Below, piece after piece: positions 2,327 to 27,100 of a stretch of DNA of 64,000 nucleotides; position 1 is the first letter of the stretch; each line of letters begins with the position of its first letter. This stretch comes from a virus. The notes under the pieces are model-generated. The model worked only from the letters and a program-made list of their open reading frames with translations, did no database searches and was not told the origin of the DNA. The position numbers were made by a program, and so were the translations under genes. The DNA is taken from positions 1 to 64,000 of IMG/VR virus record IMGVR_UViG_3300017917_001336; one strand, given 5' to 3'.

Positions 2327-2350
2327 AAAGGGCTCTTTGGAGCCCTTTCT
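2327..2350 (+). terminator. Rho-independent terminator after the major capsid gene
   Basis: AAAGGGCTC-TTTG-GAGCCCTTT hairpin followed by a pyrimidine-rich tail. Confidence 0.8.
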
Positions 2351-2359
2351 CTTGAATGG

Positions 2360-2366
2360 CTAAATA
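2360..2366 (+). promoter_or_regulatory. Late-promoter-like motif CTAAATA
   Basis: Resembles the T4 gp55 late promoter TATAAATA; the same motif recurs in most intergenic gaps of the window. Confidence 0.65.
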
Positions 2367-2370
2367 CAAT

Positions 2371-2457
2371 GTCATGCTCAATAATGAGTTTATGCAGAAT
2401 CCCTCTGCGTATGACCTAGAACGTCACTTTAAGGAGAAAACAAATGGGACGTCCATT
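2371..2457 (+). promoter_or_regulatory. Structured 5' leader (candidate cis-regulatory RNA)
   Basis: Hairpins GCTCA-ATAA-TGAGT and TATGCAGA-ATCCC-TCTGCGTA; TGAC 2412-2415 can pair with GTCA at 2371 or at 2423; hairpin AATGG/CCATT covers the start codon. Confidence 0.5.
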
Positions 2458-3451
2458 AAACAAAAAATATTTTGGTAACCGTAATATCGGTTCATCAAGC
2501 ACAACTGCCGATAATGGTATCGGCGGTGAAGGTCTAGCAAGTATTAGCAATCCAGCTGGCGGAGTTGGTAGTTTTGTTGTTAGCAACACATATAAAAACT
2601 TTCCACTATTAAACATTGGCGCTCCTAATTTACCAGGCGGCGTACAAGCTACTGCTGATGTTGTATTTGAAATTGATACAGTAACATACGCATCAGGCGG
2701 GCAAACAAACGCCGATTACGTAGCAGGTCTTTCAACTAGCATCACTGGATTAGGTGGTGGCGCAGTTGTTCGCATTGTTGAAACAGCTAGCAAAGTTACA
2801 TCAGTTGACTTAGTTGGTGGCGATCGTGGCGAGTTCCGTCGCGGTGATGCATTTGACGGTACTGGTATTACAACATTCCAAGTTTTACAAGCACCGAATC
2901 CTGGTACAGATTTACAAATTAACATTACATTCCGTGTTAAGAGTATTACTATTGTTGAAAAAGGATCTGGATACACAACAGCTCCTGCTTTATCATGGAG
3001 TGGTCACACATTTACCGGACAAACAAGTCCAAGTTTAAATGCTGTAACTCTAACTACTGATAGCGGCTCAGCAGGTAGTTCAACAAATCAAGAAAACGCT
3101 ATCATTTGTACAGCATTTATTCCAGCAGCTAATGGCGGAACACAAGCATTAACAGGCGATATTGTTAAGCAAACTAACGATCGTCGTTACAAAGTTAAAA
3201 CATCAGAAGGCACAGGTATTTGCCAATTGGTCACTGATGGTGTTGCTAACGCTGCAGGTGAAATTTCTATCAAAGCTACTGACAGCGATGGCGGAAACTA
3301 TCTAGTTGCTAAGTTAACAAGTCGTAAAGCAGTATTAGTTCCATCGGCATTAGGTGGCTCAGCTGGTACACAATTTGCTAGCGGTACAAGTGTTCCTTGG
3401 ACATTTGGTTCAGCAGTTGAAGATTACAGCGTAACTATTGAAAACGCTTAA
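2444..3451 (+). CDS. Putative virion structural protein following the capsid gene
   Basis: 335 aa, Gly/Thr/Ser-rich, beta-type repeat ITIVEKGSGYTTAP, strong SD AAGGAG, own late-type promoter. Confidence 0.7.
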   Translation: MGRPLNKKYFGNRNIGSSSTTADNGIGGEGLASISNPAGGVGSFVVSNTYKNFPLLNIGAPNLPGGVQATADVVFEIDTVTYASGGQTNADYVAGLSTSITGLGGGAVVRIVETASKVTSVDLVGGDRGEFRRGDAFDGTGITTFQVLQAPNPGTDLQINITFRVKSITIVEKGSGYTTAPALSWSGHTFTGQTSPSLNAVTLTTDSGSAGSSTNQENAIICTAFIPAANGGTQALTGDIVKQTNDRRYKVKTSEGTGICQLVTDGVANAAGEISIKATDSDGGNYLVAKLTSRKAVLVPSALGGSAGTQFASGTSVPWTFGSAVEDYSVTIENA

Positions 3452-5340: not shown

Positions 5341-8300
5341 ATGCCAGTACCTTTAGAAAACGCAGTAGCATTAGGTAGAATTGGCGGTCCTCTTCTTGCT
5401 GAAAATTTAATTAGAAAAAATACTGGGCTAGGTGAAGAAAACCTAGCATTTCACAATACTAGTGACACTGATAACATTTTATATCTTAATGTTATAGATG
5501 GCAAGATTGGTATAAACACAGATAATCCACAAGCTGAGTTAGAAGTTGCATCAAGCATACGTTCAACAGACTATCTAACATCATCGGCATCCATTGCAAA
5601 GTTTTCTATTAGTACCAATAGAATTATAAATCCGTTTGCGGGTGTTAATGGAAAAATATTCATTTCTCCTAATCAATTATTAGATCCTACAATTCAGGGT
5701 CCTCGCTTTGAAACATTGAATTTAGGTTTAGACGATAAGTTAATTGAAAATTTTACTCTCAATAGTGACATTAATTTAAACCCAAACGGTACAGGCCAAG
5801 TTTATATTACAACGTCTGAGCTAGTAGTAAACGGTGATTTAACAGTAACAGGCAAGGCAACATGGGATGGTAACTTAGTTACTATTGGTAATAGCGATTC
5901 AGACAATGTTGTGTTTAACGCTGATGTTAACAGTAACATTATTCCCGATGACAATGAAACGTGGACTTTAGGTTCTGCACAACAAAGTTGGAATAATTTA
6001 TATGTTAAGAATCTTATTGCAAACGACATAACTGCAAACAGTTCTTATATTGCAAACAGCATTGATCTTTTACTTGAACAAGGTAAAACTATATACGTTT
6101 CTGTAAACGGTAGTGATACTTCTGCAGGAACACATGAACACGGTACATATCGTACAATTAAACATGCACTAAGTCAAGCAACATCTGGAGACTCTGTAGT
6201 TATATTTCCAGGAGTATATGAAGAAGAATTTCCGTTAACTGTTCTATCCGGCGTTAGTGTTAACGGCGCAGGCATTAGATCAGTAACTGTTGTACCAACA
6301 TTGGCAACTAACACAAATAATGCATTTTTGCTTAACGGTGATACAACTGTTAGCAATTTAACAGTTAAAGATTTTTATCAGGGATATGCGTTTAGTTTTG
6401 TTACAAGTTTTACAGTACTAAACAGAAGCCCATATGTTCAAAACATTACAGTTATAACTTCAGGACCAAATGCAGGTAACGGTGCATTTATTGATGGTAG
6501 TTTAGCAAACAATTCTAGTAAAGAAGCAAGTATGTTGTTTCATAGTGTAACTATGATTATACCCGATGCAATTGGTATACATGCAACAAATGGTGCTCGA
6601 GTTGAATGGTTAAATTCATTTACCTACTATGCTAATAAGGGAATTTACCTAACACAAGGAAGTTCAGGCTTTGCAGGTTTAGGTTTAAAATTTGGTGCTG
6701 AATTACGCAGTATTGGATCTGCAAACGTATATGGTGTATACGGTGCAGTTGCAGACGGTGCTAGCACACTAGCTTACTTAATTGGACACAATTTTGCATA
6801 CATTGGTACTGGCCTTGACTCAACTAATGATCCTAAACTAGTAATACAAGCAAATGAAGTAGTAGAACAAAACAACGGTCATATCTATTATGAAAGTGTC
6901 GATCACCGTGGCGATATGCGTATTGGTGACATATTTTATATTAATCAAGAAACAGGCGCCGTAGTTTTTGATGCACAAGCTATTAACTTTTCTGCAGGCG
7001 GGTACATTGCACTAGAGAGTCCGACTAGCTCAGTGTATATAGACGCAACACAAGTTAACGTTGGAAATATCAATATACACGATAACAATATTGATAGTTT
7101 AATTGGTCCAGTTAATTTTGCCGCATCGTCTGGAAAAATATATCTTAATACTGATATAACAGTTACTGGTAACTTAGATATAACTGGATCTATTACAGTT
7201 AGCGGAAATGTTTTCTTAGGTGACAATTCGTTAGATACTATCCAAATATTTCCAAAAATTAGTCAAAACTTAGAACCAGACGTTACAAACACATATTCTT
7301 TAGGGTTAGGGGGAGTAACACCAAAAACTTGGCGTACTTTATACCTAGCGGATAGTTTAAATGTTGATAACGTTCTAGAACTAAAAAATAACACCATTTC
7401 AACTCTTACAACAAACACTAATTTAGAATTAAAAGCTGCTGGCACAGGTATTATTAATGTCACTACAACTGATGTAGAAATTACTAATAATTTAACTGTT
7501 AATGGCCTAGCTGAAGATTCTAATTTTGCAGATATTGGAATTACTGGATTATTAGATATAACAGGAGCGTGGGGTCAAACAGGCAATGCGCTCCGTGACG
7601 GATATACAGATATTTCAGGATGGTTAAAAGTTAATGGGCCAAATGTTGTACAATTTGAAGACATACAAATATCTAATAATACTATTACAACTACAGTTGG
7701 GAATAATGATTTAGAACTTTCTGCAAGCGGGTTAGGTATTGTTAAAACTATCCTGAGCGACGTAGAAATTACTAATAATTTAGATGTTTACGGTGACGGA
7801 TTTTTTAATTCTTTAGAAATATTAAACGGCATTCAAGTAACAGATGTTAATATTGACGACATTTATATTGTTGGCAATTCTATTACTACTACTGTACTTG
7901 ATGAAGATTTAATATTGTCAGCGAACGGCACCGGAGTTATAAAAGTAACAAATACTGACGTAGATATTCCAAATAACTTAACAATAGGAAACAATCTAAC
8001 AGTTAACGGTGATTCGTCATTCCAATTTTTAGAAATTGATGGCACAACTACGCTAGTTGGTAATGTTGATCAAACTGGTAATATGTATGTTACTGGAAAT
8101 TACCAAGGCGGCAATATTGTTGTGTTGCCTCCTAGCTGGGCAGAATCAGCACAAATAAAATTACAAGGTAGTTCAATTAGTGTAAAGCCAACTAATACTG
8201 ATTTAGAATTACTTGCTAACGGAACTGGTGGTGTTATTTTTGATAGACAGCTTAAAATTACCGCCAACAAAATCAGCAATATTTTTGATGTCAATGACAT

Positions 8301-9108
8301 TACATTATCGTTTAATAACATTTTAACAACTGAAGACGGACAAATTTTAATACTTGAAGACGAAACTGATTCATTGCTTGCAGATACTAAAATTGACGGC
8401 GACTTGTCAATTATATTTGAGCCAAACGGGATAGGTAATGTAATTATTAATTCAACTAAGGCGCTAGCAATAGCAGTTGGTACTGCTGTACTAGAAAGAG
8501 TTGGTGAAATTAGACAAAATACTGATGGGGTTTACGAAGGATACTCAAATAACAGTAATGTTAGTTTTACTGGAATTTATGACACAGATCATAACACTTA
8601 CATAACAGCAGAACTAACACCTGGTGCAAACGATAACACTATAAGAATGTTTGTAAACAACAGTTTAAAATCTTACATTGATACAAATAAACTTTACAAT
8701 AATGTTTTACACGTTGATAGTGTTAGCATTACAAATAATACTATTACTAATTTAAACAACGCTAACGATTTAAGATTTGTAACATCGGGTACTGGTGTAA
8801 CTAGTTTTAACGGAGTATATTTTAAAGATAACAGCATTAGTAATTCTCTTAATACTGCCCTAACTATCACAAGTACAGGAACTGGTTATGTTAAATTTGC
8901 TGGTACTAACGGAGTTGTAATTCCTGTAGGTGCAGATGTTGACAGACGCCTTGTTCCAGAAATTGGTGAAACCAGGTACAATACAGATAGAGACTATGTT
9001 GAGATTTTTGACGGTACATCATGGTTACCTGTAAACGGTGGCGGCAACGCAGCAACCGAAGAAGAGATCCAAGCAGAAACCAACCTTTGGGCGTTCATCT
9101 TAGGGTAA
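5341..9108 (+). CDS. Large fibre/appendage protein with a beta-helix (pectin-lyase-like) region; paralog of 9246
   Basis: 1255 aa; IYVSVNGSD...TIKHAL...IFPGVYEE beta-helix start; repeats of NTISTxxxNxDLELxAxGTG; RVEWLNSFTYYANKG identical in 9246. Confidence 0.75.
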   Translation: MPVPLENAVALGRIGGPLLAENLIRKNTGLGEENLAFHNTSDTDNILYLNVIDGKIGINTDNPQAELEVASSIRSTDYLTSSASIAKFSISTNRIINPFAGVNGKIFISPNQLLDPTIQGPRFETLNLGLDDKLIENFTLNSDINLNPNGTGQVYITTSELVVNGDLTVTGKATWDGNLVTIGNSDSDNVVFNADVNSNIIPDDNETWTLGSAQQSWNNLYVKNLIANDITANSSYIANSIDLLLEQGKTIYVSVNGSDTSAGTHEHGTYRTIKHALSQATSGDSVVIFPGVYEEEFPLTVLSGVSVNGAGIRSVTVVPTLATNTNNAFLLNGDTTVSNLTVKDFYQGYAFSFVTSFTVLNRSPYVQNITVITSGPNAGNGAFIDGSLANNSSKEASMLFHSVTMIIPDAIGIHATNGARVEWLNSFTYYANKGIYLTQGSSGFAGLGLKFGAELRSIGSANVYGVYGAVADGASTLAYLIGHNFAYIGTGLDSTNDPKLVIQANEVVEQNNGHIYYESVDHRGDMRIGDIFYINQETGAVVFDAQAINFSAGGYIALESPTSSVYIDATQVNVGNINIHDNNIDSLIGPVNFAASSGKIYLNTDITVTGNLDITGSITVSGNVFLGDNSLDTIQIFPKISQNLEPDVTNTYSLGLGGVTPKTWRTLYLADSLNVDNVLELKNNTISTLTTNTNLELKAAGTGIINVTTTDVEITNNLTVNGLAEDSNFADIGITGLLDITGAWGQTGNALRDGYTDISGWLKVNGPNVVQFEDIQISNNTITTTVGNNDLELSASGLGIVKTILSDVEITNNLDVYGDGFFNSLEILNGIQVTDVNIDDIYIVGNSITTTVLDEDLILSANGTGVIKVTNTDVDIPNNLTIGNNLTVNGDSSFQFLEIDGTTTLVGNVDQTGNMYVTGNYQGGNIVVLPPSWAESAQIKLQGSSISVKPTNTDLELLANGTGGVIFDRQLKITANKISNIFDVNDITLSFNNILTTEDGQILILEDETDSLLADTKIDGDLSIIFEPNGIGNVIINSTKALAIAVGTAVLERVGEIRQNTDGVYEGYSNNSNVSFTGIYDTDHNTYITAELTPGANDNTIRMFVNNSLKSYIDTNKLYNNVLHVDSVSITNNTITNLNNANDLRFVTSGTGVTSFNGVYFKDNSISNSLNTALTITSTGTGYVKFAGTNGVVIPVGADVDRRLVPEIGETRYNTDRDYVEIFDGTSWLPVNGGGNAATEEEIQAETNLWAFILG

Positions 9109-9121
9109 AAATCCAAATCAG

Positions 9122-9128
9122 CTAAATA
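9122..9128 (+). promoter_or_regulatory. Late-promoter-like motif CTAAATA
   Basis: Intergenic, immediately upstream of a structured leader. Confidence 0.65.
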
Positions 9129-9135
9129 CTATTAC

Positions 9136-9231
9136 TGTAAAGACCCGACCAAGGTTTTTACGATATTAACCTGTGGTAAACCAGCATAGAGCCGAAAGGC
9201 TGAAAATTTGGTTAACGGTGAAACACCGGGT
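9136..9231 (+). ncRNA. Multi-stem structured leader RNA (unassigned family)
   Basis: Five stems: 9136-9145/9153-9162; TTAACC/GGTTAA closing TGG-TAAA-CCA and AGCC-GAAA-GGCT; CGGTG-AAA-CACCG; possible alternative or pseudoknot pairings. Confidence 0.6.
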
Positions 9232-9245
9232 ATTGAGGAGAGCTG

Positions 9246-12200
9246 ATGGCTGTTGGTCGTATTACCGGTCCGCTCTTGAAAGCGAATTTGCTCCGCCACG
9301 GGGTAAATCTGGCTTTTGAGACCGACTTACTTTATCTAGATGTTATTAACGGCAAAGTCGGCATTAAGACTATACCGGATCCTCAATACGATTTAGATGT
9401 CAATGGATTAGTAAAATCTACAACATTAGATGTTACTACCCAAGCAGACATTGCAACTTTTACAATAAACACCAATACAATTTCAAGCTCCGACAGCACT
9501 ATTAATTTAGAGCCAAGCGGAGTTAATCCAGTAGTTTATCAAGGTAAACTTGTTACTGGCGATTTGCAAATTTCCACAAATACAATTGAAGTTACAGCAA
9601 CCAATAGTGACCTAAATATTGATACTTTAGGAACTGGTAAAGTAAATGTTAATTCTAACATGTATGTTAACGGTGACTTACATGTTACTGGCAACTTACA
9701 AGTTGACGGAGATGCTAGTGGCACAATTACTATTGGCGATGCTAACACAGACAACGTAGAATTTAAAGCAGATGTTAATAGTAACTTAGTACCAGAAGTT
9801 TGGAAATTAGGTGACGCCGGTATTGGGTTAAACTTGCCAGGAGATCCTAAGTGGGATTTAGGAAGTACAACTCAACGATGGTTAAATGCTTATGCTAAAG
9901 ATGTAACTGTTGATAGTGTAACATCTTCTAGTTTAGTAGTCAACGGCATTGATTTAGTACTTCCACAAGGAAATACAATTTATGTAGCAACAAACGGAAA
10001 CGATACTAATGCTGGTAATCACGAACACGCACCGTTTGCTACTGTTAAATATGCCTTGGGTGTAGCTACTTCTGGCACAACTGTATTCATTTATCCAGGT
10101 ACATATACAGAAATATTTCCTCTAACTGTTCCTGCAGGCGTATCAGTTAGAGGGTCTGGAATAAGATCTGTTAAGATTGTTCCAACTACTGAGACAAGAT
10201 ATAACGATGCGTTCTTGCTTACTGGGCAAACAACTATTGAAGATTTAACCGTAGCTGATTTTTTCAGCGGCGGAAATTACTTTACAGTTACAGCCGCAAG
10301 TGCCGGATCAACAACAGTTAATGTTGGCACAGCACCATTTGCCCACACTTATGTAAGTGGCGGAACAGTAACAATTGGTGCAACAGTTTATAACATTACT
10401 AATGCAGTTTACACATATACAACTGGTGTGTTAGTTTTAACTCATACTGGCGGAACAGCAACACCTGGAGATAGTGTATTTGTTTCTGACTTAACATTTA
10501 GTTGTGCAGGCCCAGTAGGTTCAAGCACTAGAATATTTCCAGATAACGGATATGCATTCCGTTTTGCAGAAGGATTCACCGTTTCATCACGCAGTCCATA
10601 TGTAAGAAATTGTACAGTTCTTACAAAAGGTAGTGTAACAAGTCCATCAGATCCGTTAGGTTTTGATGCACATGATGCTGGCCGCGGAGCATACCTTGAT
10701 GGAGCATACGCAAGTATCACTTCAAACGAAGCAGGCATGTTATTCCATTCTGCAACATTTATTACACCTGGAGTTGATACTATTACAACTAAAAACGGAG
10801 TTCGTGTTGAGTGGTTAAATTCATTTACATATTATGCTAATAAAGGTTTTAATTTAATTTCTAGTAATTATGGTTTATCACAACAAGGTAAGACTCGTTT
10901 AAGAATTGACAACCGTGCAGGGACTTGGACCACAGGCAATACAGTAACGTACTATGACACAGACGGCACAACTGTTTTAGCATCTGGTGTTATTTCTAAT
11001 GTTGATGGAAATTATATTAACTTAACAGGAAAGTGTGTAGGGTTTGAAACTATTACTGATCGTGTTGGCAAAACTGTTTATGCTCAAGGTAATGCAAAAC
11101 TAGCAACAGCACAGAAAAAGTTTGGTACTGCAAGTCTTGTACTAGACGGAACAGGCGATTATGCTTCAATTACAAGCCAACCGGATTTTGAATTCGGTAC
11201 TGGAGATTTTTGTTTAGAAGCTTACATTTATCCAACAACTAGCGGAGCATATAGAACAATATTTGATATGCGTACGGCTGCTACAGACGTTGCTATATTT
11301 TTAGGACTTACTAGCGGTAATGCTTTATATTGTTTTATAAACGGTTCTATTGTAATGACTGGCGGCACAGGTGCAACATTAAATGCTTGGTCACATGTTG
11401 CAATAGCAAGATCAGGAACTAGTTTAAAAATGTTTTTAAACGGAGTTCAACAAGGATCGACTTATACAGATACAAACAACTATTCTGCTAAACCTTTAAG
11501 AATTGGAGCAGACTGGCAAGCACTATACGGTTTAACTGGATACGTTGATGATGTTCGTGTGAGCAAAGGTGTTCCTCGATATACAGGAACATTTACAGCA
11601 CCGGCTAGCGCACTAAGCGGAGATTTATCAACTGTATTATTATTGCATTTTAACGGTGCTAATAATTCAACTACTTTCTTAGACGACGGTGTTACACTAC
11701 AAGATTTAAGAACAAGTGCAGGCGGTACTGCAACACTAATTAATTTTGCCGACTACTCGGACTTTGGTGCAGAAGTTCGCTCAATTGGTTCAGCATGTGT
11801 TTACGGAAATTATGGATTCTATGGCGATGGAGATGGAATCATCGCATATCTAATTTCACAAAACTTTGCGTATGTTGGTGCAGGCAAATTATCAACAAAC
11901 GATCCTAATGACAGAATTGCAGCTAATGAAGTTGTAAAATTAAATCGTGCAAAAATTTATTATACAAGCGTTGATAATGAAGGTAACTTTAGTGTTGGCG
12001 ATGCGTTTTTTGTAAATCAAAAAACTGGCGATGTGTTATTCAACGGCCAATCACTATCAATTACTGCACCAAGCGGTGTTACATTTACAGACGGTGTTAA
12101 CACTACAACAATATTGCCAACAAACATTGATACAGGAAACATTCGTATTAGTGGTAACACTATTGAAAGTTTAACTGGTGATGTTAACGTAGTTGCTGCA

Positions 12201-14060
12201 AGCGGAGCAATTAATTTACAAAATAACACATATATCACTGGCGACTTAGATGTTACAGGCGATATTAATTTAGGCGGCAACATTACAATTGGTAATGAAA
12301 GTACCGATACTATCACATTTGTTGCGGGAATTACTAGCAATTTAGTTCCATCAAATCCAGCATCATATGACCTTGGTACAGATGCACTACGTTGGAACAA
12401 TGCATTTTTAAGCCGCGTAGAAATTGACGGGCTTGTAATTGATAACAATTCTATTAGCACAACTGTAGGAAATGATGACCTAACACTAACTGCTAACGGT
12501 ACTGGAAAAATTCTAATACCAAATAATAATGTTCAAATTGATCAAGCTCTTACAGTTAACGGAAGTACTACGCTTAAAGGAACTACAGTCAACGGTGATA
12601 TAACCCAAACTGGAGATGTTACACAGACTGGCGATTATACACAAACAGGTAATACTGAAATTACAGGAACATTAACAGTTGGATCTTATGCTCAGTTTGA
12701 AGAAATTAAAATTGATTTAAACACTATTAGCACAACTACTTCTGGAACAGATTTAGTATTAGAAGCAGCAGGTACTGGTAAGATTTCAATTCCATCAGAC
12801 GATGTATATCTAGGACAAGATTTAACTGTAAACGGTGCAACTACTATAGATAATGCCACTGTTACAAATAATTTAACAGTTGGCTCGTTAACTACTGGTG
12901 ATATTTCTATTGAAAATAATTCTATTACTACTACAGTAACTAATAGTAATTTAGAATTATCAGCTAACGGTACAGGCATTGTTTCAATACCAACAAATAA
13001 TGTTGAAATTGATCAAAGTTTAACAGTAACTCAAGATTTAACAGTAACTACTGGTACAACTTATCTTAAAGATGCAAGCATCACCGGAGACATTACACAA
13101 ACTGGTGATATTAATCAAACCGGTGATTTTACAACAAGCGGAACTGTTGAGGTCACTGGTAATATAACTGCAACTAATTCTTTACAAGTAGCCGACATAT
13201 TAATATCCGGCCACACTATTGAAAGCACAGCAACTAATACAGATTTAGCATTGTTACCAAATGGTACTGGTGATATTGTTTTTGAAAATATTCGTGTTAC
13301 TGATAATACATTTAGAAGTACGTTAACTAACCAAGATATTATTCTTGAACCAAACGGTGTTGGTAGTGTCTTAATTCAAAGCGATCAAAGTTTAATTATT
13401 CCTGTAGGAACAACAGCAGAGCGTCCAGGCACACCAGTTAACGGAATGATTCGTTACAACACAGATTTATCTCGCTATGAAGGTTACTACGCAACTTATA
13501 ACAAATGGTTACAACTAAGCGGCGTTATTGATGAAGACGGCAATACTTATATTACAGCAGAATTAACTCCGGGGGCAAATGATAATGTTATTCGATTTGT
13601 TGTTAACAATAATTTGTTAGCATACATCGATTCAACAAAATTATGGGCAGACAGATTTGAAACTAATAATATTGCAGTTTATGACGATCAGATCACAACT
13701 GTAGCAAGTAATACAGATATTAATCTAACTACAGCCGGCACTGGTGGTGTTAAGATTGGTAATTTACGTATTAGAAACAACACTATTACTAATACAGCAA
13801 CAAATGCCGTAACTGAATTTAGTGAAGTAGGATCTGGATACGTTAAAATTTCAGGAACTAACGGAGTAGTAATACCATCTGGCGACTTATCAAACTTACC
13901 AGTATCTCCAGAGTTAGGTATGATTAGATTTAATACATTCTATTCTTATGTAGAAGTATGGAACGGAACACAATGGGTTAACTCCGCAGGTACAAACAGC
14001 GGTGTTACATTAAATCAAGCAACAGATATTGGTATTGTATCAGCATTACTATTTGGATAA
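9246..14060 (+). CDS. Large fibre/appendage protein with beta-helix and inserted LamG/concanavalin-A-like domain
   Basis: 1604 aa; paralog of 5341; LamG-type motifs KFGTASLVLDGTGDY...WSHVAIARSG...GYVDDVRVSKGVPRY (about 11085-11690); SD GAGGAG. Confidence 0.78.
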   Translation: MAVGRITGPLLKANLLRHGVNLAFETDLLYLDVINGKVGIKTIPDPQYDLDVNGLVKSTTLDVTTQADIATFTINTNTISSSDSTINLEPSGVNPVVYQGKLVTGDLQISTNTIEVTATNSDLNIDTLGTGKVNVNSNMYVNGDLHVTGNLQVDGDASGTITIGDANTDNVEFKADVNSNLVPEVWKLGDAGIGLNLPGDPKWDLGSTTQRWLNAYAKDVTVDSVTSSSLVVNGIDLVLPQGNTIYVATNGNDTNAGNHEHAPFATVKYALGVATSGTTVFIYPGTYTEIFPLTVPAGVSVRGSGIRSVKIVPTTETRYNDAFLLTGQTTIEDLTVADFFSGGNYFTVTAASAGSTTVNVGTAPFAHTYVSGGTVTIGATVYNITNAVYTYTTGVLVLTHTGGTATPGDSVFVSDLTFSCAGPVGSSTRIFPDNGYAFRFAEGFTVSSRSPYVRNCTVLTKGSVTSPSDPLGFDAHDAGRGAYLDGAYASITSNEAGMLFHSATFITPGVDTITTKNGVRVEWLNSFTYYANKGFNLISSNYGLSQQGKTRLRIDNRAGTWTTGNTVTYYDTDGTTVLASGVISNVDGNYINLTGKCVGFETITDRVGKTVYAQGNAKLATAQKKFGTASLVLDGTGDYASITSQPDFEFGTGDFCLEAYIYPTTSGAYRTIFDMRTAATDVAIFLGLTSGNALYCFINGSIVMTGGTGATLNAWSHVAIARSGTSLKMFLNGVQQGSTYTDTNNYSAKPLRIGADWQALYGLTGYVDDVRVSKGVPRYTGTFTAPASALSGDLSTVLLLHFNGANNSTTFLDDGVTLQDLRTSAGGTATLINFADYSDFGAEVRSIGSACVYGNYGFYGDGDGIIAYLISQNFAYVGAGKLSTNDPNDRIAANEVVKLNRAKIYYTSVDNEGNFSVGDAFFVNQKTGDVLFNGQSLSITAPSGVTFTDGVNTTTILPTNIDTGNIRISGNTIESLTGDVNVVAASGAINLQNNTYITGDLDVTGDINLGGNITIGNESTDTITFVAGITSNLVPSNPASYDLGTDALRWNNAFLSRVEIDGLVIDNNSISTTVGNDDLTLTANGTGKILIPNNNVQIDQALTVNGSTTLKGTTVNGDITQTGDVTQTGDYTQTGNTEITGTLTVGSYAQFEEIKIDLNTISTTTSGTDLVLEAAGTGKISIPSDDVYLGQDLTVNGATTIDNATVTNNLTVGSLTTGDISIENNSITTTVTNSNLELSANGTGIVSIPTNNVEIDQSLTVTQDLTVTTGTTYLKDASITGDITQTGDINQTGDFTTSGTVEVTGNITATNSLQVADILISGHTIESTATNTDLALLPNGTGDIVFENIRVTDNTFRSTLTNQDIILEPNGVGSVLIQSDQSLIIPVGTTAERPGTPVNGMIRYNTDLSRYEGYYATYNKWLQLSGVIDEDGNTYITAELTPGANDNVIRFVVNNNLLAYIDSTKLWADRFETNNIAVYDDQITTVASNTDINLTTAGTGGVKIGNLRIRNNTITNTATNAVTEFSEVGSGYVKISGTNGVVIPSGDLSNLPVSPELGMIRFNTFYSYVEVWNGTQWVNSAGTNSGVTLNQATDIGIVSALLFG

Positions 14061-14824: not shown

Positions 14825-17800
14825 ATGGCAGCAGAATTTAAAATTGGTAGATTACGATATAACTGGGCAGGCACATGGACAACTGCCACAGAATACGGTC
14901 GAGACGACGTAATCCTTAATGACGGAAAAGCATATTTTTGTTTAATTCCACATACTGCAAGCGCAAACTTTTACACAGATTTGTATGCTACATTTCCTAA
15001 ATGGAAGCAAATGCTTGACGGAAAAACATGGGCAGGCCCATGGGAAACCTCTCATTCATATGGTGTAGGACACATTGTTGTATTTGGCGGAAACGCATAC
15101 ACTTCAATCGTTGCCCATACTAGTACAACCTTTGCCGCAGATGCTGCTAATTGGGAAGTCTATACAGAATCAAATAAATGGAATCCAGTTTGGCAAGCCA
15201 ATACAGCGTACGGATTAAATGATATTGTTCGCTGGGGCGGAATTGTTTATAAGTGTATTGCAAATCACACAAGCGCAGCATCAACTACGTTAGGTCTCGA
15301 AGCTAATCAAGCTAGTTGGGAAGTCTATTATTCTGGAATTGATTTTAAAGGTGATTGGACATCCAGCCAACGATACAAATTAAACGATATAGTTAAATTA
15401 AACGGAAGTCTTTACAGATGTACACAGTATCACACTTCTTCAAGCACATTTGCTGACAATAATTTTGTTGTTTGGGTCCCAGGGCAGTTGGCCAACATAA
15501 TGTGGTCGTCAGCAACAACTTACCAAATAGGTGATGCAGTTATATATGGTGGCGATGCTTATATCAGCAAGACTTCCAATAATTCAAATAATTTTCCAGA
15601 TACTGACATTATAAACTGGGGTCCTTTTAATATTGGTTATACTGTTAGAAATAACTGGTCATCAACTACTCCGTATGCACCAGGTGATTTAGTTTCTAGA
15701 AATGGAGTTCTGTACGAAGCAGTAGCAAGAAGTACAGGACAAGATCCAAATACTAGTACAACAAATACTACATATATTTCAGCCGGAAGTTCCGGTAATA
15801 CAATTACAGTATTGTCGGGAGCTGGCATAGTTTCTGGTATGACTGTTTCTGGAACAGGGATATCCAACGGACAACGTGTTTCAACAGTAACAACTACATC
15901 AGCATCAGTTACTACAGCAACAATCAGCGGGCCTCCTGCAATAACTGTAAGTTCCTTTACATCTAAAACAGGTTCAGGACCGTATCTTGTTACTTTTGCT
16001 ATCCCATCACAATCTATTGCTCCGCCTATTAACACTAACTATGTAGTAGCAGGTAATAGTAACAATAGTTATAATGGAACTTATACCTGTACTGCTAGTA
16101 CCACAACAAGTATTACACTAAGTTATGTAACAGATCCAGGTGTATACGGATCTGGAACTACAACTCTTACAGCGCAAGCTGGTACAACTCTTACACTTAC
16201 TGGTACTGTAACTGGTACATTTGCCCCCGGCATGTTGCTTAATGGTTCTGGAATCCCTAACGGTGTATATATCGTATCTGGTGCTGGAACTTCTTGGGAA
16301 ATTAGTTCACCGTTATCTGTTACTTCTATTGTTATTAGCGGAACATTAACATCAATTGTGCTAACTAGTCCGCCAAATAGTACAGTTCCAGACAACACAA
16401 CTTTTAATTTCTTAGGTATAAATTCAGCATATTGGTCTGTTTTAATTTCTGGCAAGAAATGGTGTAACAGATGGGTACAAGGAACCTTATATTCTGTAGG
16501 CGATGTAGTTGCTTACAGTAACGGTGTATATGTTTGTGTTAATCAACATCAAGACCCTAGTACTCCATCTGCAACATTCCAGCCCGGAAACAGCACTTCC
16601 GGCAATTGGATATTATTAATTTCATCAGATTTAAACAATGCACTAAACAGCCAAGGTGACTTAAGAACATTTGCAAATAATAAACCAAGTGCAGTAGCAA
16701 TAGGAACCGACACATATCTTTTAAGTGTAAATAGCGATATTCCAAACTGGAGAAAAATAAACGTAGTTCCAGCAGTTTATTATGTTGATGCATACTCGGG
16801 TATCGATACCCCAGGATATGGAATTACATGGGACCAACCATGGCGCTCAATCAAATATGCATGTGATACTATTAGTACTGGTTTTTATTTTCCTAATGCA
16901 GTAACTTTACTAAAAGCAAATAAAGCATACGTTATTGCAGAAATGTATCAATGGATGTTGTACCAAATGGCCAATAACATTGCTCCATTTAGTTCTGATA
17001 GTTTATGGAATCCAACTAAAGCACAGCGCGATGCATCATTAATTTTTGATGCGATCGTCTACGATTTAAAGAGAGGCGGTAATAGTCAGTCGGTAAATGC
17101 TGCGCTATCATTCTTTTATTACGGAAGTCAAACTCAACTAGTCAATAGCATTGTAAAATCAACTTTGCCTTACTATGTTCCTGCCTTAAATTATCTAGTT
17201 ACTTTAATGCAGAGTGTAGTTGCAAATACTAACTTAGTAAATTATCAGTTATTAAATAATGTTCCATTAGTAAGCCGTGTTAATCAAGTTGTTATTAACA
17301 GTTTAGTTGCAGAATCTGGTATCAACACAAACATTTCAAGTTTAATGTCCATTATTACAACTGCATTAACAAATGAAAACACATACCTTGTCCCAACTGC
17401 TAATACTGGAATTCAAGCATCTATCTACGTAAAAACAGGAACTTATAACGAATTATTACCAATTAGCGTTCCAGAGAATGTATCAATCATTGGAGACGAA
17501 TTGCGTAGTGCAGTTGTGCAACCATCAATAAGCAAAACTTTTTATTGCACACAAACTATTGCACCTAATAGTAATCAAATTACTACTAATACTATGGTAG
17601 TTAACAGTACTGTTGGTTTAGTTGATCAAATGCGTTTGCAATTTATTAGTCCGTTTATCAATAATGCCCCTACAACTTTTGGCGGTGTCACATCTGGAAA
17701 AACATACTATGTTGATGGAAGTTCTATAACTAGCACTAGTTTAAGAATTAAAGATGGTCCAACATTTGATTTTACTGGAACCACTACCCTTGGCAGTAAT

Positions 17801-24139: not shown

Positions 24140-24146
24140 ATAAATA
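24140..24146 (+). promoter_or_regulatory. Late-promoter-like motif ATAAATA
   Basis: In the 39-nt gap before 24167. Confidence 0.6.
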
Positions 24147-24166: not shown

Positions 24167-27100
24167 ATGGCAGAATTTAAACTAGGTAGAATTAAGTTTG
24201 TTTACAAAGGGTCTTGGGCCAACGGAACAAGTTATGTAGTCGATGACGTAGTAACCAATGGCGGCAAAACATACATTTGTGTAATTGCTCACACCGCAAG
24301 TCCTTTGTTTGCTACAGATCTAGCAGGCGGCGTAGGAATTACAAAATGGAATCTTATCGCAGACGGCCAATCATGGAAAGGTAACTGGGTTGCATCCACA
24401 TACTATAATTTAGGAGATTTAGTATTATGGGGCGGCATAGTTTACATTTGTAAAACAGCCCATACTAGTGCTACCTATACAACACCAACATATTTAGGTT
24501 TAGAAAACGATCAAGCTAAATGGGACGCATTTGCTGCAAACTTTAAATGGATGGGTGCTTGGACAAATAGTACACGATATAAAGTTAGAGATTTAGTGTT
24601 CTACGGTGGCACTACCTATGTATGTAATACCGCACATATTTCTGCCTCAACTGATAGCTCTGGTTTAGAAGCCGACATAAGCAAATGGGATACATTTAAT
24701 CAAGGTATTACTTTTTTAGGTGAATGGAGTGGAAGCTCAGTAAGATATAAAGTTAATGATGTTGTAAAATTTGGTGCAGACCTTTGGATCTGTACTACAT
24801 ATCACACTTCAAGCGGGTCAAGCATTGATACAAACAATTTCTCTGTGTTTGTAAACGGATTCCAGTTTGAAGGCTCATGGAGTGCATCTAACGAATACCA
24901 AAAGGGTGACGTAGTAACATACGGTGGTTACACTTATACCGCTCTTCTAAATAATGGAAGTGCTAGCCCTAAAGTTCCTTCACAAGAACCAACATATTGG
25001 AAAGTATTCACCTCTGGTCTAGTATATTCTGGAGAATGGGATACTGGAACATCATACAAAATTGGTAATGTAGTAACACTTGGCGGCTATACTTACGTTG
25101 CAACAGCAGATAATTCTGCATCAAAACCACCAAGCGCAAATTGGGGACAACTAAGTTCTGGAATTCGTTGGGCAGCAGCTCCAAATACAACCTATTCTAA
25201 TGTTTCAAGCACAAATTTAAGTGCAACTGGTAGTGGTAATCCTACATTTAATGTAACTCGTTCTGGAACTAATTATTCCGTTGTTATTGGTAATTCTGCA
25301 GGTACAGGATATACCGTTAACGATACCTTAAAGATTTTAGGTAGTAATGTTGGTGGCGCAAGTCCGGGCAATGATTTAATTGTTAAGGTAGCTACAATAA
25401 CCGGCGGTGGCGGCACAGGACCTATTGGTACTGTGACAATTTTCTCAGGTTATGCCGCAACATGGAAAACTGGAATCACTTATGTAGCAGGAGATGCCGT
25501 TTATTACGGAAACAGCAGTTACATTTGTATCAGTGCTCACATTGGATCAGTAGGCGTTAACGATCCTATTACAGATACCGGTGTATACTGGAATATTTTA
25601 GCTAGCGGTGCAGATAGCGGTGCCCTAACTACCCAAGGCGATATGGTTTATTATGGCGCCAACGGTCCAACTCGACTACCAATTGGTACAGATGGTCAAG
25701 TTTTAAGAGTTGATGTAGATAAACCAAGCTGGTCTTACTATGGCGAATTGCAAAACATTGTTTATGTTGCACCAAGCGGAGCCGACGTGTTTGGTAATGG
25801 CCAAGGTTTAACCTTAGACAAGCCATGGAAAACTTTAGGATATGCTTGCAAACAAGTTGAAGACGGTTACTTAAATAGAAACGCTGGAAAAATATTACAA
25901 GTTAACAAACAGTTTATGATGAAAGAAGTTAATAACTTCATCATAACACAATATTCATTTAATGTTACAGGAACTAGCTCTTCTGGCAATACATTTATTG
26001 TTGGCGGATCAAGTTCAACTAGCCAGACAACAACTGCTAATATGTATTATGGTATGCCTATAACATTTAGCGCGGCAACTGGTGGAGTAACAGTTGGAAC
26101 AACTTACTATGTTAATACAATTCCATCAAGCACAACATTTACTGTAAGTGCAAGTTATCAGAGCGGTATTATTCAAACAATATCAGCAAATAGTGCCACA
26201 ACATCTACAGCATCATTTGCTTACACACAAAGTAAAGCAGAACGTGATACAGGAACTGTAATTGATGGTATAACATTTGACTTAACACACGGTGGAAATT
26301 TATACACTATCACTGCTACACAAGCATATTTTAGCACATTAACATCTTATGTGTCAACCGGTACAAGACAACAAGCTCCAGTATTTGCAGCTAGTTTAAG
26401 TTATTTGAAAGATACGCTGTTTCCAGCTGTAATGACAAACTCTGCACCAGCTAATAATTATCAAACAATACAAGGCATTAGCTTAGGTAACAGAGCAATT
26501 CAAAATATAACAAGTGTTACATCGGTATCAGTCGAAACTGGCGCATTGTCTTCAGTTCAAACATTGTTAGCTGTAATTACAAATGCACTAGCATCAGGAA
26601 CATACGGTAATGCTCCTCAACTTAATAGACCAAACACAACAATTTATCTAAAAACAGGTACTTATAGTGAATACGGTCCAATCGTAGTGCCTCAAGATAC
26701 TGCGGTAGTCGGCGACGAATTACGTAGTACCATTGTACAAGTTGCTCCAGCAGCAACGTACTTAGGTACTGATAAACCAAAAACTGTCACTGCATTAAAA
26801 AGAATTCAATCAGTATTGTCTGATATTGTAGCAAACAATACAGTTACGCCTACTACTACTGGAACAACATTCCCTAATACACAAACACAAGTAACAGCTT
26901 TGCCGGCTGGTGATACTGGAAATGCTTCCGCTGCAAATCTTGTAGTTAATAATACAAAAATTATTCAAGATATGTTTGAAGGCGGCACCGTTATTACAGG
27001 TCCTACCAATTCAAACTATCCTACAGGTAATGCTTATGCACCAGCAATTAGCATGCCAACAGTTACAGGATACAATACATCATATCTAGCTAACTATGGC

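What the first reader, a model, noticed from the sequence alone, without database searches (positions are those of the whole stretch)
9109..9245. Complex multi-stem RNA in the leader of a giant structural gene
Seen: one of the two longest intergenic gaps (137 nt) in a tightly packed region starts with CTAAATA and is almost fully foldable. P1 is TGTAAAGACC/GGTTTTTACG. A three-way junction is closed by TTAACC/GGTTAA and contains TGG-TAAA-CCA and AGCC-GAAA-GGCT (GNRA loop). CGGTG-AAA-CACCG then sits just before the GAGGAG RBS. The P1 loop (GACCAA) is complementary to TTGGTT 9208-9213, and ACCCG 9143-9147 to CGGGT 9227-9231, allowing alternative folds or pseudoknots. Inference: an undescribed cis-regulatory RNA (riboswitch-like element, translational operator or small ribozyme) that sets the stoichiometry of the appendage proteins.
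Basis: partly seen in the sequence, partly recalled or inferred. Interest (0 to 1): 0.72.

Follow-up and report, generated by a model that had tools for sequence, protein, structure and literature searches.

The report
Structured leader RNA of phage baseplate gene
The 137-base gap holds a real, widely conserved folded RNA at the start of a late phage messenger; its first hairpin loop also base-pairs with codons 3-5 of the giant baseplate or fibre gene that follows, so it most likely controls how often that gene is translated.

Summary
The gap 9109-9245 carries a T4-type late-promoter box (CTAAATAC, 9122-9129). An about 110-nt leader follows, with three helices: P1 9136-9162, P2 9177-9215 with a distal GNRA hairpin, and P3 9216-9228.

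The leader is conserved upstream of one gene family (N-terminus MA[VI]GRI[ST]GPLLK) in at least 120 uncultured jumbo-phage contigs. There is one copy per genome and no Rfam match.

All three helices covary: 15 of 20 pairs have compensatory changes.

New here: the P1 loop CGACCAA pairs with UUGGUCG, codons 3-5 (9253-9259).
- Gly-4 is GGU in 107 of 108 sequences and Arg-5 is always CGN.
- All 7 unique leaders with GGA at codon 4 (at least 4 leader classes by my reading) have GUCCA in the loop.
- Paralogous N-termini without the leader use AGA.

Best reading: a cis-acting translation-initiation control element that works like the Levivirus maturation-gene leader. Its sign and any effector are unknown. 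Riboswitch, protein operator and stabiliser readings remain open; ribozyme is unlikely.

It may sit unnamed among the 8,495 IMG/VR candidates of Fremin et al. 2023. This scan had not noted it on other DNA.

The parts
9122..9129 (+). T4-type late-promoter-like box CTAAATAC; the inferred transcript start is about 9134-9135
   Evidence: [AC]TAAATA is invariant in all 121 unique leaders. The same box lies 26-37 nt upstream of ORFs at 24167, 40047 and 45575, and upstream of the freshwater-2 leader. The T4 late promoter consensus is TATAAATA (PMC3014915). The transcript start was not measured.
9136..9162 (+). P1: 10-bp hairpin (9136-9145 with 9153-9162) with the 7-nt loop CGACCAA (9146-9152), 1-2 nt from the inferred 5' end
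   Evidence: 118 of 121 leaders have a hairpin here (mean z = -2.6 against shuffles). On a MAFFT alignment, 8 of 9 P1 pairs show changes on both sides. All 9 do on the model-fitted alignments.
9163..9176 (+). A/U-rich linker (9163-9170) and the invariant single-stranded CUGUGG (9171-9176)
   Evidence: C50 T51 G52 G54 G55 T56 are invariant in 121 leaders. No pairing partner was found by mutual information.
9177..9215 (+). P2: UAAACC(AG) 9177-9184 pairs with (UU)GGUUAA 9208-9215. It encloses the conserved GCA(U/A)AG and the optional distal hairpin P2a, AGCC-GAAA-GGCU (9190-9201).
   Evidence: On a MAFFT alignment, pair 57/93 reads A.A 60, U-A 37, C-G 23, and pair 59/91 reads A-U 85, G-C 25, U.G 3. 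The distal part has 0, 1 or 2 hairpins (66, 63 and 9 leaders), in 49 distinct stem-loop combinations, mostly with GNRA loops.
9216..9228 (+). P3: CGGUG-AAA-CACCG, directly abutting P2
   Evidence: The second pair is G-C here and C-G in most relatives, a compensatory change. The class-2 P3 GGGA-CAGGA-UCCC has GGCA/UGCC and GCGA/UCGC variants, and L089 carries an unrelated hairpin. 4 of 5 pairs show changes on both sides.
9235..9248 (+). Shine-Dalgarno GAGGAG (9235-9240), spacer AGCUG, and start codon AUG (9246-9248)
   Evidence: GGAG is nearly invariant. The ORF is 9246-14060.
9253..9259 (+). PK target UUGGUCG (codons 3-5, GUU GGU CGU), complementary to the P1 loop CGACCAA
   Evidence: Gly-4 is GGT in 107 of 108 sequences and Arg-5 is CGN in 108 of 108. 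The genome background is GGT 44% and AGA 40%. All 7 unique leaders with GGA at codon 4 have GUCCA loops. After correcting one mis-picked row (L091), the loop A/G or U against codon U or A table reads 115:0 and 0:7; as computed it read 114:0 and 1:7, Fisher 1.2e-10, not corrected for phylogeny. On an alignment fitted to a model that lacks this helix, 87.9% of cells pair. The duplex energy is -8.8 kcal/mol.
9267..9281 (+). Codons 8-12 (GGU CCG CUC UUG AAA) with suppressed synonymous variation. GCUCUU (9272-9277) is complementary to the SD-spacer GAGAGC (9238-9243).
   Evidence: CCG is used in 87 of 100 sequences, CTC in 88 of 105 and TTA in 81 of 108, whereas later Leu and Gly codons are mixed. 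CTC at codon 10 occurs in 111 of 142 leader-bearing genes against 3 of 31 homologs without the leader. In RNAfold ensembles the commonest partner of the SD is +25..+34. No covariation was shown (permutation P = 0.33), so membership of this part is inferred.

Best explanation
The gap encodes the 5' untranslated leader of a late phage mRNA. Transcription most likely starts about 5-6 nt after the T4-type late-promoter box CTAAATAC.

The RNA folds into:
- a 5'-terminal hairpin, P1;
- an invariant single-stranded CUGUGG;
- a helix, P2, with a variable GNRA-capped distal extension;
- an abutting hairpin, P3, placed 7 nt upstream of the Shine-Dalgarno sequence.

The P1 loop (C)GACCAA then pairs over about 100 nt with (U)UGGUCG, codons 3-5 of the downstream gene. 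That gene encodes a giant baseplate-wedge or fibre-like protein. This closes the leader into a cloverleaf-like pseudoknot.

The paired segment (+8 to +14) lies inside the ribosome's landing site. A second conserved segment (codons 9-11) can pair with the SD-spacer. The element therefore most likely acts in cis on translation initiation, probably restraining it. In this it works like the long-distance interaction in the Levivirus maturation-gene leader, which limits a low-copy virion protein.

Shown: conservation, gene specificity, single copy, covariation of P1, P2 and P3 and of the loop-codon pairing, and suppressed synonymous variation.

Inferred: the transcript start, the effect on translation and its sign, and whether P2-P3 binds a protein or a ligand.
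For: Conservation and specificity:
Nearly all have TAAATA upstream and an ORF starting MA[VI]GRI[ST]G downstream.
- In bacterial genome contigs 118 of 120 pattern hits lack that context, which serves as a chance control.
- There is one hit in the phage's own 147.6-kb record. There is one hit in each of the 91 related loci that matched, out of 100 sources.

Structure:
- MAFFT alignment A3: 90.3% of cells paired against about 40% for slid partners, and 8 of 9 P1 pairs changed on both sides.
- P2 on MAFFT alignment A2: A.A, U-A and C-G at one pair; A-U and G-C at another.
- Model-fitted alignment A4: 15 of 20 pairs compensatory, covariation score 0.594 against 0.173 for shuffles.

Loop-codon pairing:
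- The complement is 6-7 nt long and occurs in 55% of leaders against 2.9% of shuffled loops.
- Gly-4 is GGT in 107 of 108 and Arg-5 is CGN in 108 of 108. The background is GGT 44% and AGA 40%.
- All 7 unique leaders with GGA at codon 4, in at least 4 leader classes by my reading of their sequences, have GUCCA loops.
- The loop nucleotide after ACC tracks the third base of codon 3 (permutation P = 0.002).
- Most homologous starts with Arg-5 = AGA have no leader element at all. The few that have one (L300, L303, L302) lack a GACC loop.
- Paralogous N-termini in this window, at 5341, 14825 and 24167, all use GGT AGA.
- On alignment A6, whose model lacks this helix, 87.9% of its cells pair.

Comparators: T4 late promoter and translation-initiation-region structures (PMC3014915); Levivirus leader (PMC4615214).
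Against:
- No experiment shows any effect on translation, so the sign (repression or activation) is open.
- The Shine-Dalgarno sequence is only about half paired in thermodynamic ensembles, and the SD-spacer to codon 9-11 pairing shows no covariation (P = 0.33).
- The outer pairs of the loop-codon helix are imperfectly kept: when the third base of codon 3 is A, the loop has U in only 4 of 18.
- Three leaders lack P1, and a subfamily has P1 loops without GACC yet keeps GGUCG. The pairing is therefore not obligatory.
- The strong conservation of CUGUGG and of the P2 apex is not explained by this model.
- All statistics treat related sequences as independent.
Confidence: 0.6

Rival explanations
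1. Operator for a protein. The invariant CUGUGG, the P2 apex (GCAA..UG..AA) and P3 form a binding platform for a phage or host protein, possibly the gene's own product. The bound protein blocks or frees the ribosome-binding site, as with T4 gp32 and gp43. This is compatible with the loop-codon pairing and differs only in naming an effector.
For: - Many invariant unpaired nucleotides flank P2.
- P3 abuts the SD region.
- P3 comes in two sequence classes with conserved loops, AAA or CAGGA.
- There are precedents for autogenous operators in T4 (PMC3014915).
Against: - No candidate protein was identified.
- P3 can be replaced by an unrelated hairpin (L089).
Confidence: 0.2
2. Small-molecule riboswitch. 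P2-P3 is an aptamer, and ligand binding shifts the balance between the loop-codon pairing and an open ribosome-binding site.
For: - It is a compact, highly conserved multi-helix core with variable peripheral stems and GNRA loops.
- It lies in a 5' UTR next to the SD.
Against: - It is associated with a single structural gene and with no metabolic or transport gene.
- It matches none of the known riboswitch families.
- No conserved alternative pairing involving the aptamer strands was found.
Confidence: 0.1
3. mRNA stabiliser or processing element only. The 5'-terminal P1 hairpin and the compact fold protect a very long late transcript (at least 15 kb, up to the next promoter box at 24140) from 5'-end-dependent RNases, without regulating translation.
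For: - In 53 of 118 leaders P1 begins 6 nt after the promoter box, which is 1-2 nt from the inferred 5' end.
- Giant ORFs follow, with the next promoter box at 24140.
Against: - It does not explain the sequence-specific, covarying pairing of the loop with codons 3-5.
- It does not explain the invariant CUGUGG and P2 apex.
- Three leaders lack P1 but keep the core.
Confidence: 0.07
4. Other RNA functions. One is a self-cleaving ribozyme. The other is a put-like RNA that makes RNA polymerase resistant to termination across the giant genes.
For: - The element is promoter-proximal, has two abutting helices and is followed by very long genes.
- It has a conserved unpaired core.
Against: - There is no match to any Rfam ribozyme or antitermination family, even at E up to 10.
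- The covarying link to codons 3-5 points to the ribosome-binding site rather than to polymerase or to cleavage.
- Nothing else speaks for these readings.
Confidence: 0.03

Closest known systems
Levivirus (MS2) maturation-gene 5' UTR with its long-distance interaction (PMC4615214)
   Same: - Both are phage leaders of about 110-130 nt with a 5' hairpin and further arms.
- Both are closed into a cloverleaf by a long-range pairing between an upstream segment and the translation initiation region.
- Both precede a low-copy virion protein, and base-pairing potential rather than sequence is conserved.
   Different: - No sequence or model homology.
- This is a DNA jumbo phage's late mRNA rather than an RNA genome.
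- The upstream partner is a hairpin loop and the target is codons 3-5, not the Shine-Dalgarno sequence.
- A kinetic trap and repression are not shown here.
T4 translation-initiation-region structures: genes e, soc, 49 and I-TevI (inhibitory), genes 25 and 38 (enhancing); gp32 and gp43 operators (PMC3014915)
   Same: - All are in T4-superfamily phages with TATAAATA-type late promoters.
- In all, mRNA structure at the initiation region tunes translation; gene 25 is a baseplate gene.
   Different: - The T4 cases are single local hairpins, or a pseudoknot bound by gp32.
- None has a three-helix leader or a loop-to-coding-region pairing.
- In genes e and soc the late transcript escapes the structure, whereas here the late transcript carries it.
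freshwater-2 RNA (Rfam RF02980)
   Same: - It occurs in the same genome (2375-2446) and in a relative (L089).
- It also lies between a CTAAATAC box and the SD of a structural-module gene.
- It is a candidate cis-regulatory leader of unknown mechanism.
   Different: - It is a different sequence and fold, and its covariance model does not hit 9109-9245.
- It precedes a different downstream gene.
Unnamed candidate structured RNAs from IMG/VR (DNAVirus_X; Fremin et al. 2023, PMC10690425)
   Same: - Same data source, and the same kind of object: covarying intergenic motifs directly upstream of phage genes, such as the GP20 and GP32 leaders.
   Different: - Whether this motif is one of the 8,495 could not be checked, because the supplements are not held.
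- That catalogue assigns no mechanism and does not model pairings with coding sequence.

Membership tests
Any Rfam 15 family (riboswitches, ribozymes, leaders, sRNAs) | Covariance-model match at or near the gathering score | tested here: not met
   There is no hit on 9109-9245 even at E up to 10. The whole window at gathering thresholds gives only freshwater-2 at 2375-2446. Five divergent relatives have no hit on the leader.
T4-type late promoter | TATAAATA-like box about 6 nt upstream of the transcript start, with no -35 element | tested here: met
   CTAAATAC lies at 9122-9129, and [AC]TAAATA is invariant in 121 leaders. The same box lies 26-37 nt upstream of other ORFs. There is no sigma-70-like site in 8800-9500.
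T4-type late promoter | Mapped 5' end of the transcript; dependence on gp55 and gp33 | not testable with these tools
Riboswitch | Conserved structured aptamer with covariation | tested here: met
   P1, P2 and P3 covary.
Riboswitch | Association with genes for the metabolism or transport of a ligand | tested here: not met
   The element always precedes the same structural gene: PHROG 'baseplate wedge subunit' and a Laminin_G_3 domain.
Riboswitch | Specific ligand binding and a ligand-dependent switch | not testable with these tools
   This needs in-line probing or SHAPE.
Self-cleaving ribozyme | Match to a known catalytic core, or cleavage activity | tested here: not met
   There is no match to any Rfam ribozyme family. 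Cleavage itself is not testable here.
Levivirus-type leader with a long-distance interaction (analogy, not homology) | Long-range pairing between a leader segment and the translation initiation region, kept by compensatory change | tested here: met
   The P1 loop pairs with codons 3-5. GACCA goes with GGU in 115 leaders and GUCCA with GGA in 7, with no exception after correcting one mis-picked row. 87.9% of cells pair on alignment A6.
Levivirus-type leader with a long-distance interaction (analogy, not homology) | The pairing represses translation; a transient structure delays it | not testable with these tools
   This needs reporters, toeprints and folding kinetics.
Intrinsic terminator | G+C-rich hairpin followed by a run of U | tested here: not met
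   There is none in the gap. The only terminator-like site in 8800-9500 is inside the ORF at 9286-9308, and the count is at chance level.
Upstream ORF or leader peptide | Reading frame kept across homologs | tested here: not met
   There is no ATG in the gap. Leader lengths run from 79 to 148 nt in steps that are not multiples of three. Compensatory changes would alter any peptide.

The most novel reading that the evidence does not exclude
A dsDNA jumbo phage gates translation of a low-copy baseplate or fibre protein with an RNA-phage-like device. A 5'-terminal hairpin loop kisses codons 3-5 and closes a cloverleaf leader. The invariant CUGUGG-P2-P3 core is a sensor, for a phage protein such as the unassembled gene product or for a small molecule, and it decides whether the gate is shut. 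That would be a new class of switchable leader, defined by a covarying UTR-to-coding-sequence pseudoknot.
Probability: 0.3. Interest if true: 0.78.

Novelty: new variant of a known kind. Interest (0 to 1): 0.64.

Why it matters
Few cis-regulatory RNAs are known for the late structural genes of DNA phages, and almost none for the uncultured aquatic jumbo phages.

- The element is abundant (at least 120 contigs) and specific to one gene.
- Its covariation is unusually clean, and it includes a pairing that constrains the codons of the protein it controls. That is a concrete case of RNA structure shaping synonymous-site choice.
- It gives a directly testable model for how a giant, low-stoichiometry virion protein is dosed. 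The element is compact, about 150 nt, and can be moved into reporter systems even though no host is cultured.
- The result also shows that motif searches limited to intergenic DNA miss essential parts of such elements.

Tried and rejected
- MAFFT plus RNAalifold on 24 leaders found almost nothing, because P1 was misaligned. A hand-set structure and covariance models solved this.
- DNA search against cultured phages found no match. A protein search found only a 100-residue patch of cyanophage gp7.
- Model R1 found nothing in three cultured jumbo relatives whose capsid proteins are 69-72% identical: Vibrio phage 2.275.O, Sinorhizobium phage Phosso and Cronobacter phage GAP32.
- A mutual-information scan found no further Watson-Crick tertiary pairs, and no partner for CUGUGG.
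- A 7-bp pairing seen in the window's MFE, ATCAGCT (9117-9123) with AGCTGAT (9241-9247), could hide the AUG in read-through transcripts. Among the leaders inspected it recurs only in L014, so it was dropped.
- The pairing of the SD-spacer with codons 9-11 is more complementary than shuffled sequence (-8.2 against -6.5 kcal/mol) but shows no covariation (P = 0.33). It is kept only as an inference.
- An upstream ORF starting at the GTG inside CUGUGG was rejected because insertions are not multiples of three.
- The supplements of Weinberg 2017 and Fremin 2023 are not held.
- Earlier notes of this scan hold nothing on this motif, by place or by sequence.

Full report
**What is in the sequence.** The window is the first 64 kb of a 147.6-kb IMG/VR virus record that CheckV rates about 40% complete. 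Its + strand carries a T4-like structural module:
- a major capsid protein at 1141-2301 (PHROG 138);
- ORFs of 1255, 1604, 3100 and 3354 aa.

The capsid protein is 69-72% identical to those of jumbo myoviruses of 350-470 kb: Vibrio phage 2.275.O, Sinorhizobium phage Phosso, Cronobacter phage GAP32 and Serratia phage BF.

The 1604-aa ORF (9246-14060) matches PHROG 'baseplate wedge subunit' at E = 8e-197. It has a Laminin_G_3 domain and a 100-residue patch like cyanophage gp7.

The gap 9109-9245 is one of the two long gaps in this module. The other, 2302-2443, holds the Rfam family freshwater-2. On its own the gap folds only modestly better than shuffles (z = -2.08).

**It is conserved, gene-specific and single copy.**
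- Homologs of the first 400 aa of the ORF brought in 35 viral loci. About 30 of them have a recognisably similar leader.
- In practically all of these, TAAATA lies upstream and an ORF starting MA[VI]GRI[ST]GPLLK lies downstream. This gave 121 unique leaders.
- The same pattern in bacterial genome contigs gave 120 hits. 118 of them have no such context, as chance predicts in 596 Gb.
- The two real ones include a 335-kb contig binned as a Neomarinimicrobiota MAG.
- A covariance model (R1) finds one hit in the phage's own record (E = 1e-16) and nothing else in the window with filters off.
- R1 matched 91 of 100 sources (the window and 99 related loci), once in each. It finds none in three cultured jumbo relatives.
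- Rfam has no family for it, in the window or in five divergent relatives.

**The fold.** The leaders share this order: [AC]TAAATAC, about 5 nt, hairpin P1, an A/U-rich linker, invariant CUGUGG, helix P2, hairpin P3, a few nucleotides, AAGGAG, AUG.

*P1.*
- Its stem sequence is free but it always pairs. 118 of 121 leaders have it, with mean z = -2.6.
- On an alignment not fitted to any structure, 8 of 9 pairs show changes on both sides. 90.3% of cells pair, against about 40% when partners are slid.

*P2.*
- It is UAAACC with GGUUAA. One position reads A.A, U-A or C-G in strict association. Another reads A-U, G-C or U.G.
- Its distal end carries none, one or two extra hairpins in 49 distinct versions, mostly GNRA-capped. 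The window's AGCC-GAAA-GGCU is one of them.

*P3.*
- It comes in two classes. The window's CGGUG/CACCG is a compensated version of the common CCGUG/CACGG.

On the model-fitted alignment of 91 sequences, 15 of 20 pairs are compensatory and the covariation score is 0.594. Shuffles give 0.173 and slid partners at most 0.11.

Its TGG-TAAA-CCA hairpin uses the 5' strand of P2.

**The new point: the P1 loop pairs with codons 3-5.** The conserved loop (C)GACCAA is the exact complement of (U)UGGUCG at 9253-9259, which is GUU GGU CGU. Five lines support a real pairing.
1. 55% of leaders have at least 6 contiguous Watson-Crick pairs between the loop and -6..+24, against 2.9% for shuffled loops.
2. Synonymous variation is suppressed exactly there.
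   - Gly-4 is GGT in 107 of 108 sequences and Arg-5 is CGN in 108 of 108.
   - Gly-19 and Gly-39 use mixed codons, and Arg-17 and Arg-37 include AGA.
   - The genome's structural ORFs use GGT 44% and AGA 40% of the time.
3. A targeted scan for homologs with GGA at codon 4 gave 7 unique leaders. By my reading they fall into at least four leader classes, and one is a close relative of the window. All seven have GUCCA in the loop.
   - Pooled and computed, the table reads 114:0 and 1:7 (Fisher 1.2e-10, not corrected for phylogeny).
   - The single odd row (L091) is a mis-picked motif, so the corrected table is 115:0 and 0:7.
4. The next loop position tracks the third base of codon 3 (permutation P = 0.002), though imperfectly.
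5. Where the loop is missing, the constraint is gone.
   - Most homologous starts with Arg = AGA have only a 25-27-nt leader. The few with a leader have loops without GACC.
   - The paralogous N-termini in this window, at 5341, 14825 and 24167, all read GGT AGA.

On an alignment made with a model that does not contain this helix, 87.9% of its cells pair. ACCCG/CGGGT is window-specific.

**A possible second contact.**
- Codons 8-12 (GGU CCG CUC UUA AAG) also have suppressed synonymous variation.
- CUC at codon 10 occurs in 111 of 142 leader-bearing genes, against 3 of 31 homologs without the leader.
- GCUCUU is complementary to the SD-spacer, and in RNAfold ensembles the commonest partner of the SD is +25..+34.
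- No covariation supports this contact (P = 0.33), so I keep it as an inference.

**How it most likely works.**
- The box [AC]TAAATAC matches the T4 late promoter TATAAATA (PMC3014915). It recurs 26-37 nt upstream of other ORFs here.
- P1 typically begins 6 nt after the box, so it sits at the very 5' end of the inferred transcript.
- The loop-codon helix (about -8.8 kcal/mol) occupies +8 to +14, inside the 30S binding site, and ties the 5' end to the initiation region.
- The nearest working analogue is the Levivirus maturation-gene leader. There a long-distance pairing closes a cloverleaf and limits a low-copy virion protein (PMC4615214).
- T4 itself tunes several genes, including baseplate gene 25, by structures at the initiation region (PMC3014915).
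- I therefore favour cis control of translation initiation, probably restraint.
- Not explained: the invariant CUGUGG and the P2 apex. They suggest a bound factor, and a protein operator or a ligand sensor remain open.
- Nothing supports a ribozyme or an antitermination RNA.

**Novelty.**
- The element is not in Rfam.
- It may be one of the 8,495 unnamed IMG/VR candidates of Fremin et al. 2023 (PMC10690425). Their files could not be checked.
- I found no earlier description of the pairing with the coding sequence in the papers I read; that catalogue is built from intergenic regions.
- This scan's earlier notes hold nothing on this motif. One note on the freshwater-2 leader of the same genome proposes a similar leader-to-start-codon pairing (e1-5878395).

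**Limits.**
- There are no transcript data and no experiment.
- All counts treat related sequences as independent.
- No member of the lineage with this element is cultured.

Noticed in passing
window 2329-2446: The other long gap holds a terminator-like hairpin after the capsid gene, then a CTAAATAC box (2360-2367), then the Rfam family freshwater-2 (RF02980, 61.4 bits, 2375-2446) running up to the SD of ORF 2444-3451. Relative L089 also has freshwater-2 (5652-5727). The design is the same as the leader studied here: late-promoter box, then a structured leader.
   Followed up: partly
window 5341-5400, 14825-14884, 24167-24226: The peptide motif xGR(I/L)xGPLL recurs at the N-termini of neighbouring giant ORFs: ALGRIGGPLLA at 5341, and related IGRL and LGRI at 14825 and 24167. 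This looks like a shared N-terminal module of paralogs. All three use GGT AGA, unlike the leader-bearing gene.
   Followed up: partly
L295, L296, L308: In these relatives a paralog with a short leader (25-27 nt), with AGA at the Arg of the shared N-terminal motif, lies in the same locus as the leader-bearing gene. In L295 the two are about 1.5 kb apart, with the paralog upstream, as in the window's 5341 and 9246 arrangement.
   Followed up: partly
window 24140, 40010, 45549: [AC]TAAATA[AC] boxes lie 26-37 nt upstream of ORFs at 24167, 40047 and 45575. They are likely late promoters and mark the transcription units of the structural module.
   Followed up: partly
L191 (contig PBPT01000016.1, 335,231 bp): A 335-kb contig binned as a 'Candidatus Neomarinimicrobiota' MAG carries the leader and its gene. 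It is probably a near-complete jumbo phage genome that was misbinned, or a hint at the host.
   Followed up: no
class-2 relatives, e.g. L017:2888-3003: The class-2 P3 hairpin GGGA-CAGGA-UCCC displays ACAGGAU in its loop. From memory this resembles CsrA/RsmA-type GGA hairpin sites, and a second GGA lies in the SD. Not tested.
   Followed up: no
window 9286-9308: A terminator-like hairpin with a T-run lies 40 nt inside the ORF (ATTTGCTCCGCCACGGGGTAAAT, then CTGGCTTTTG). The count is at chance level: 1 found against 0.7 expected.
   Followed up: no
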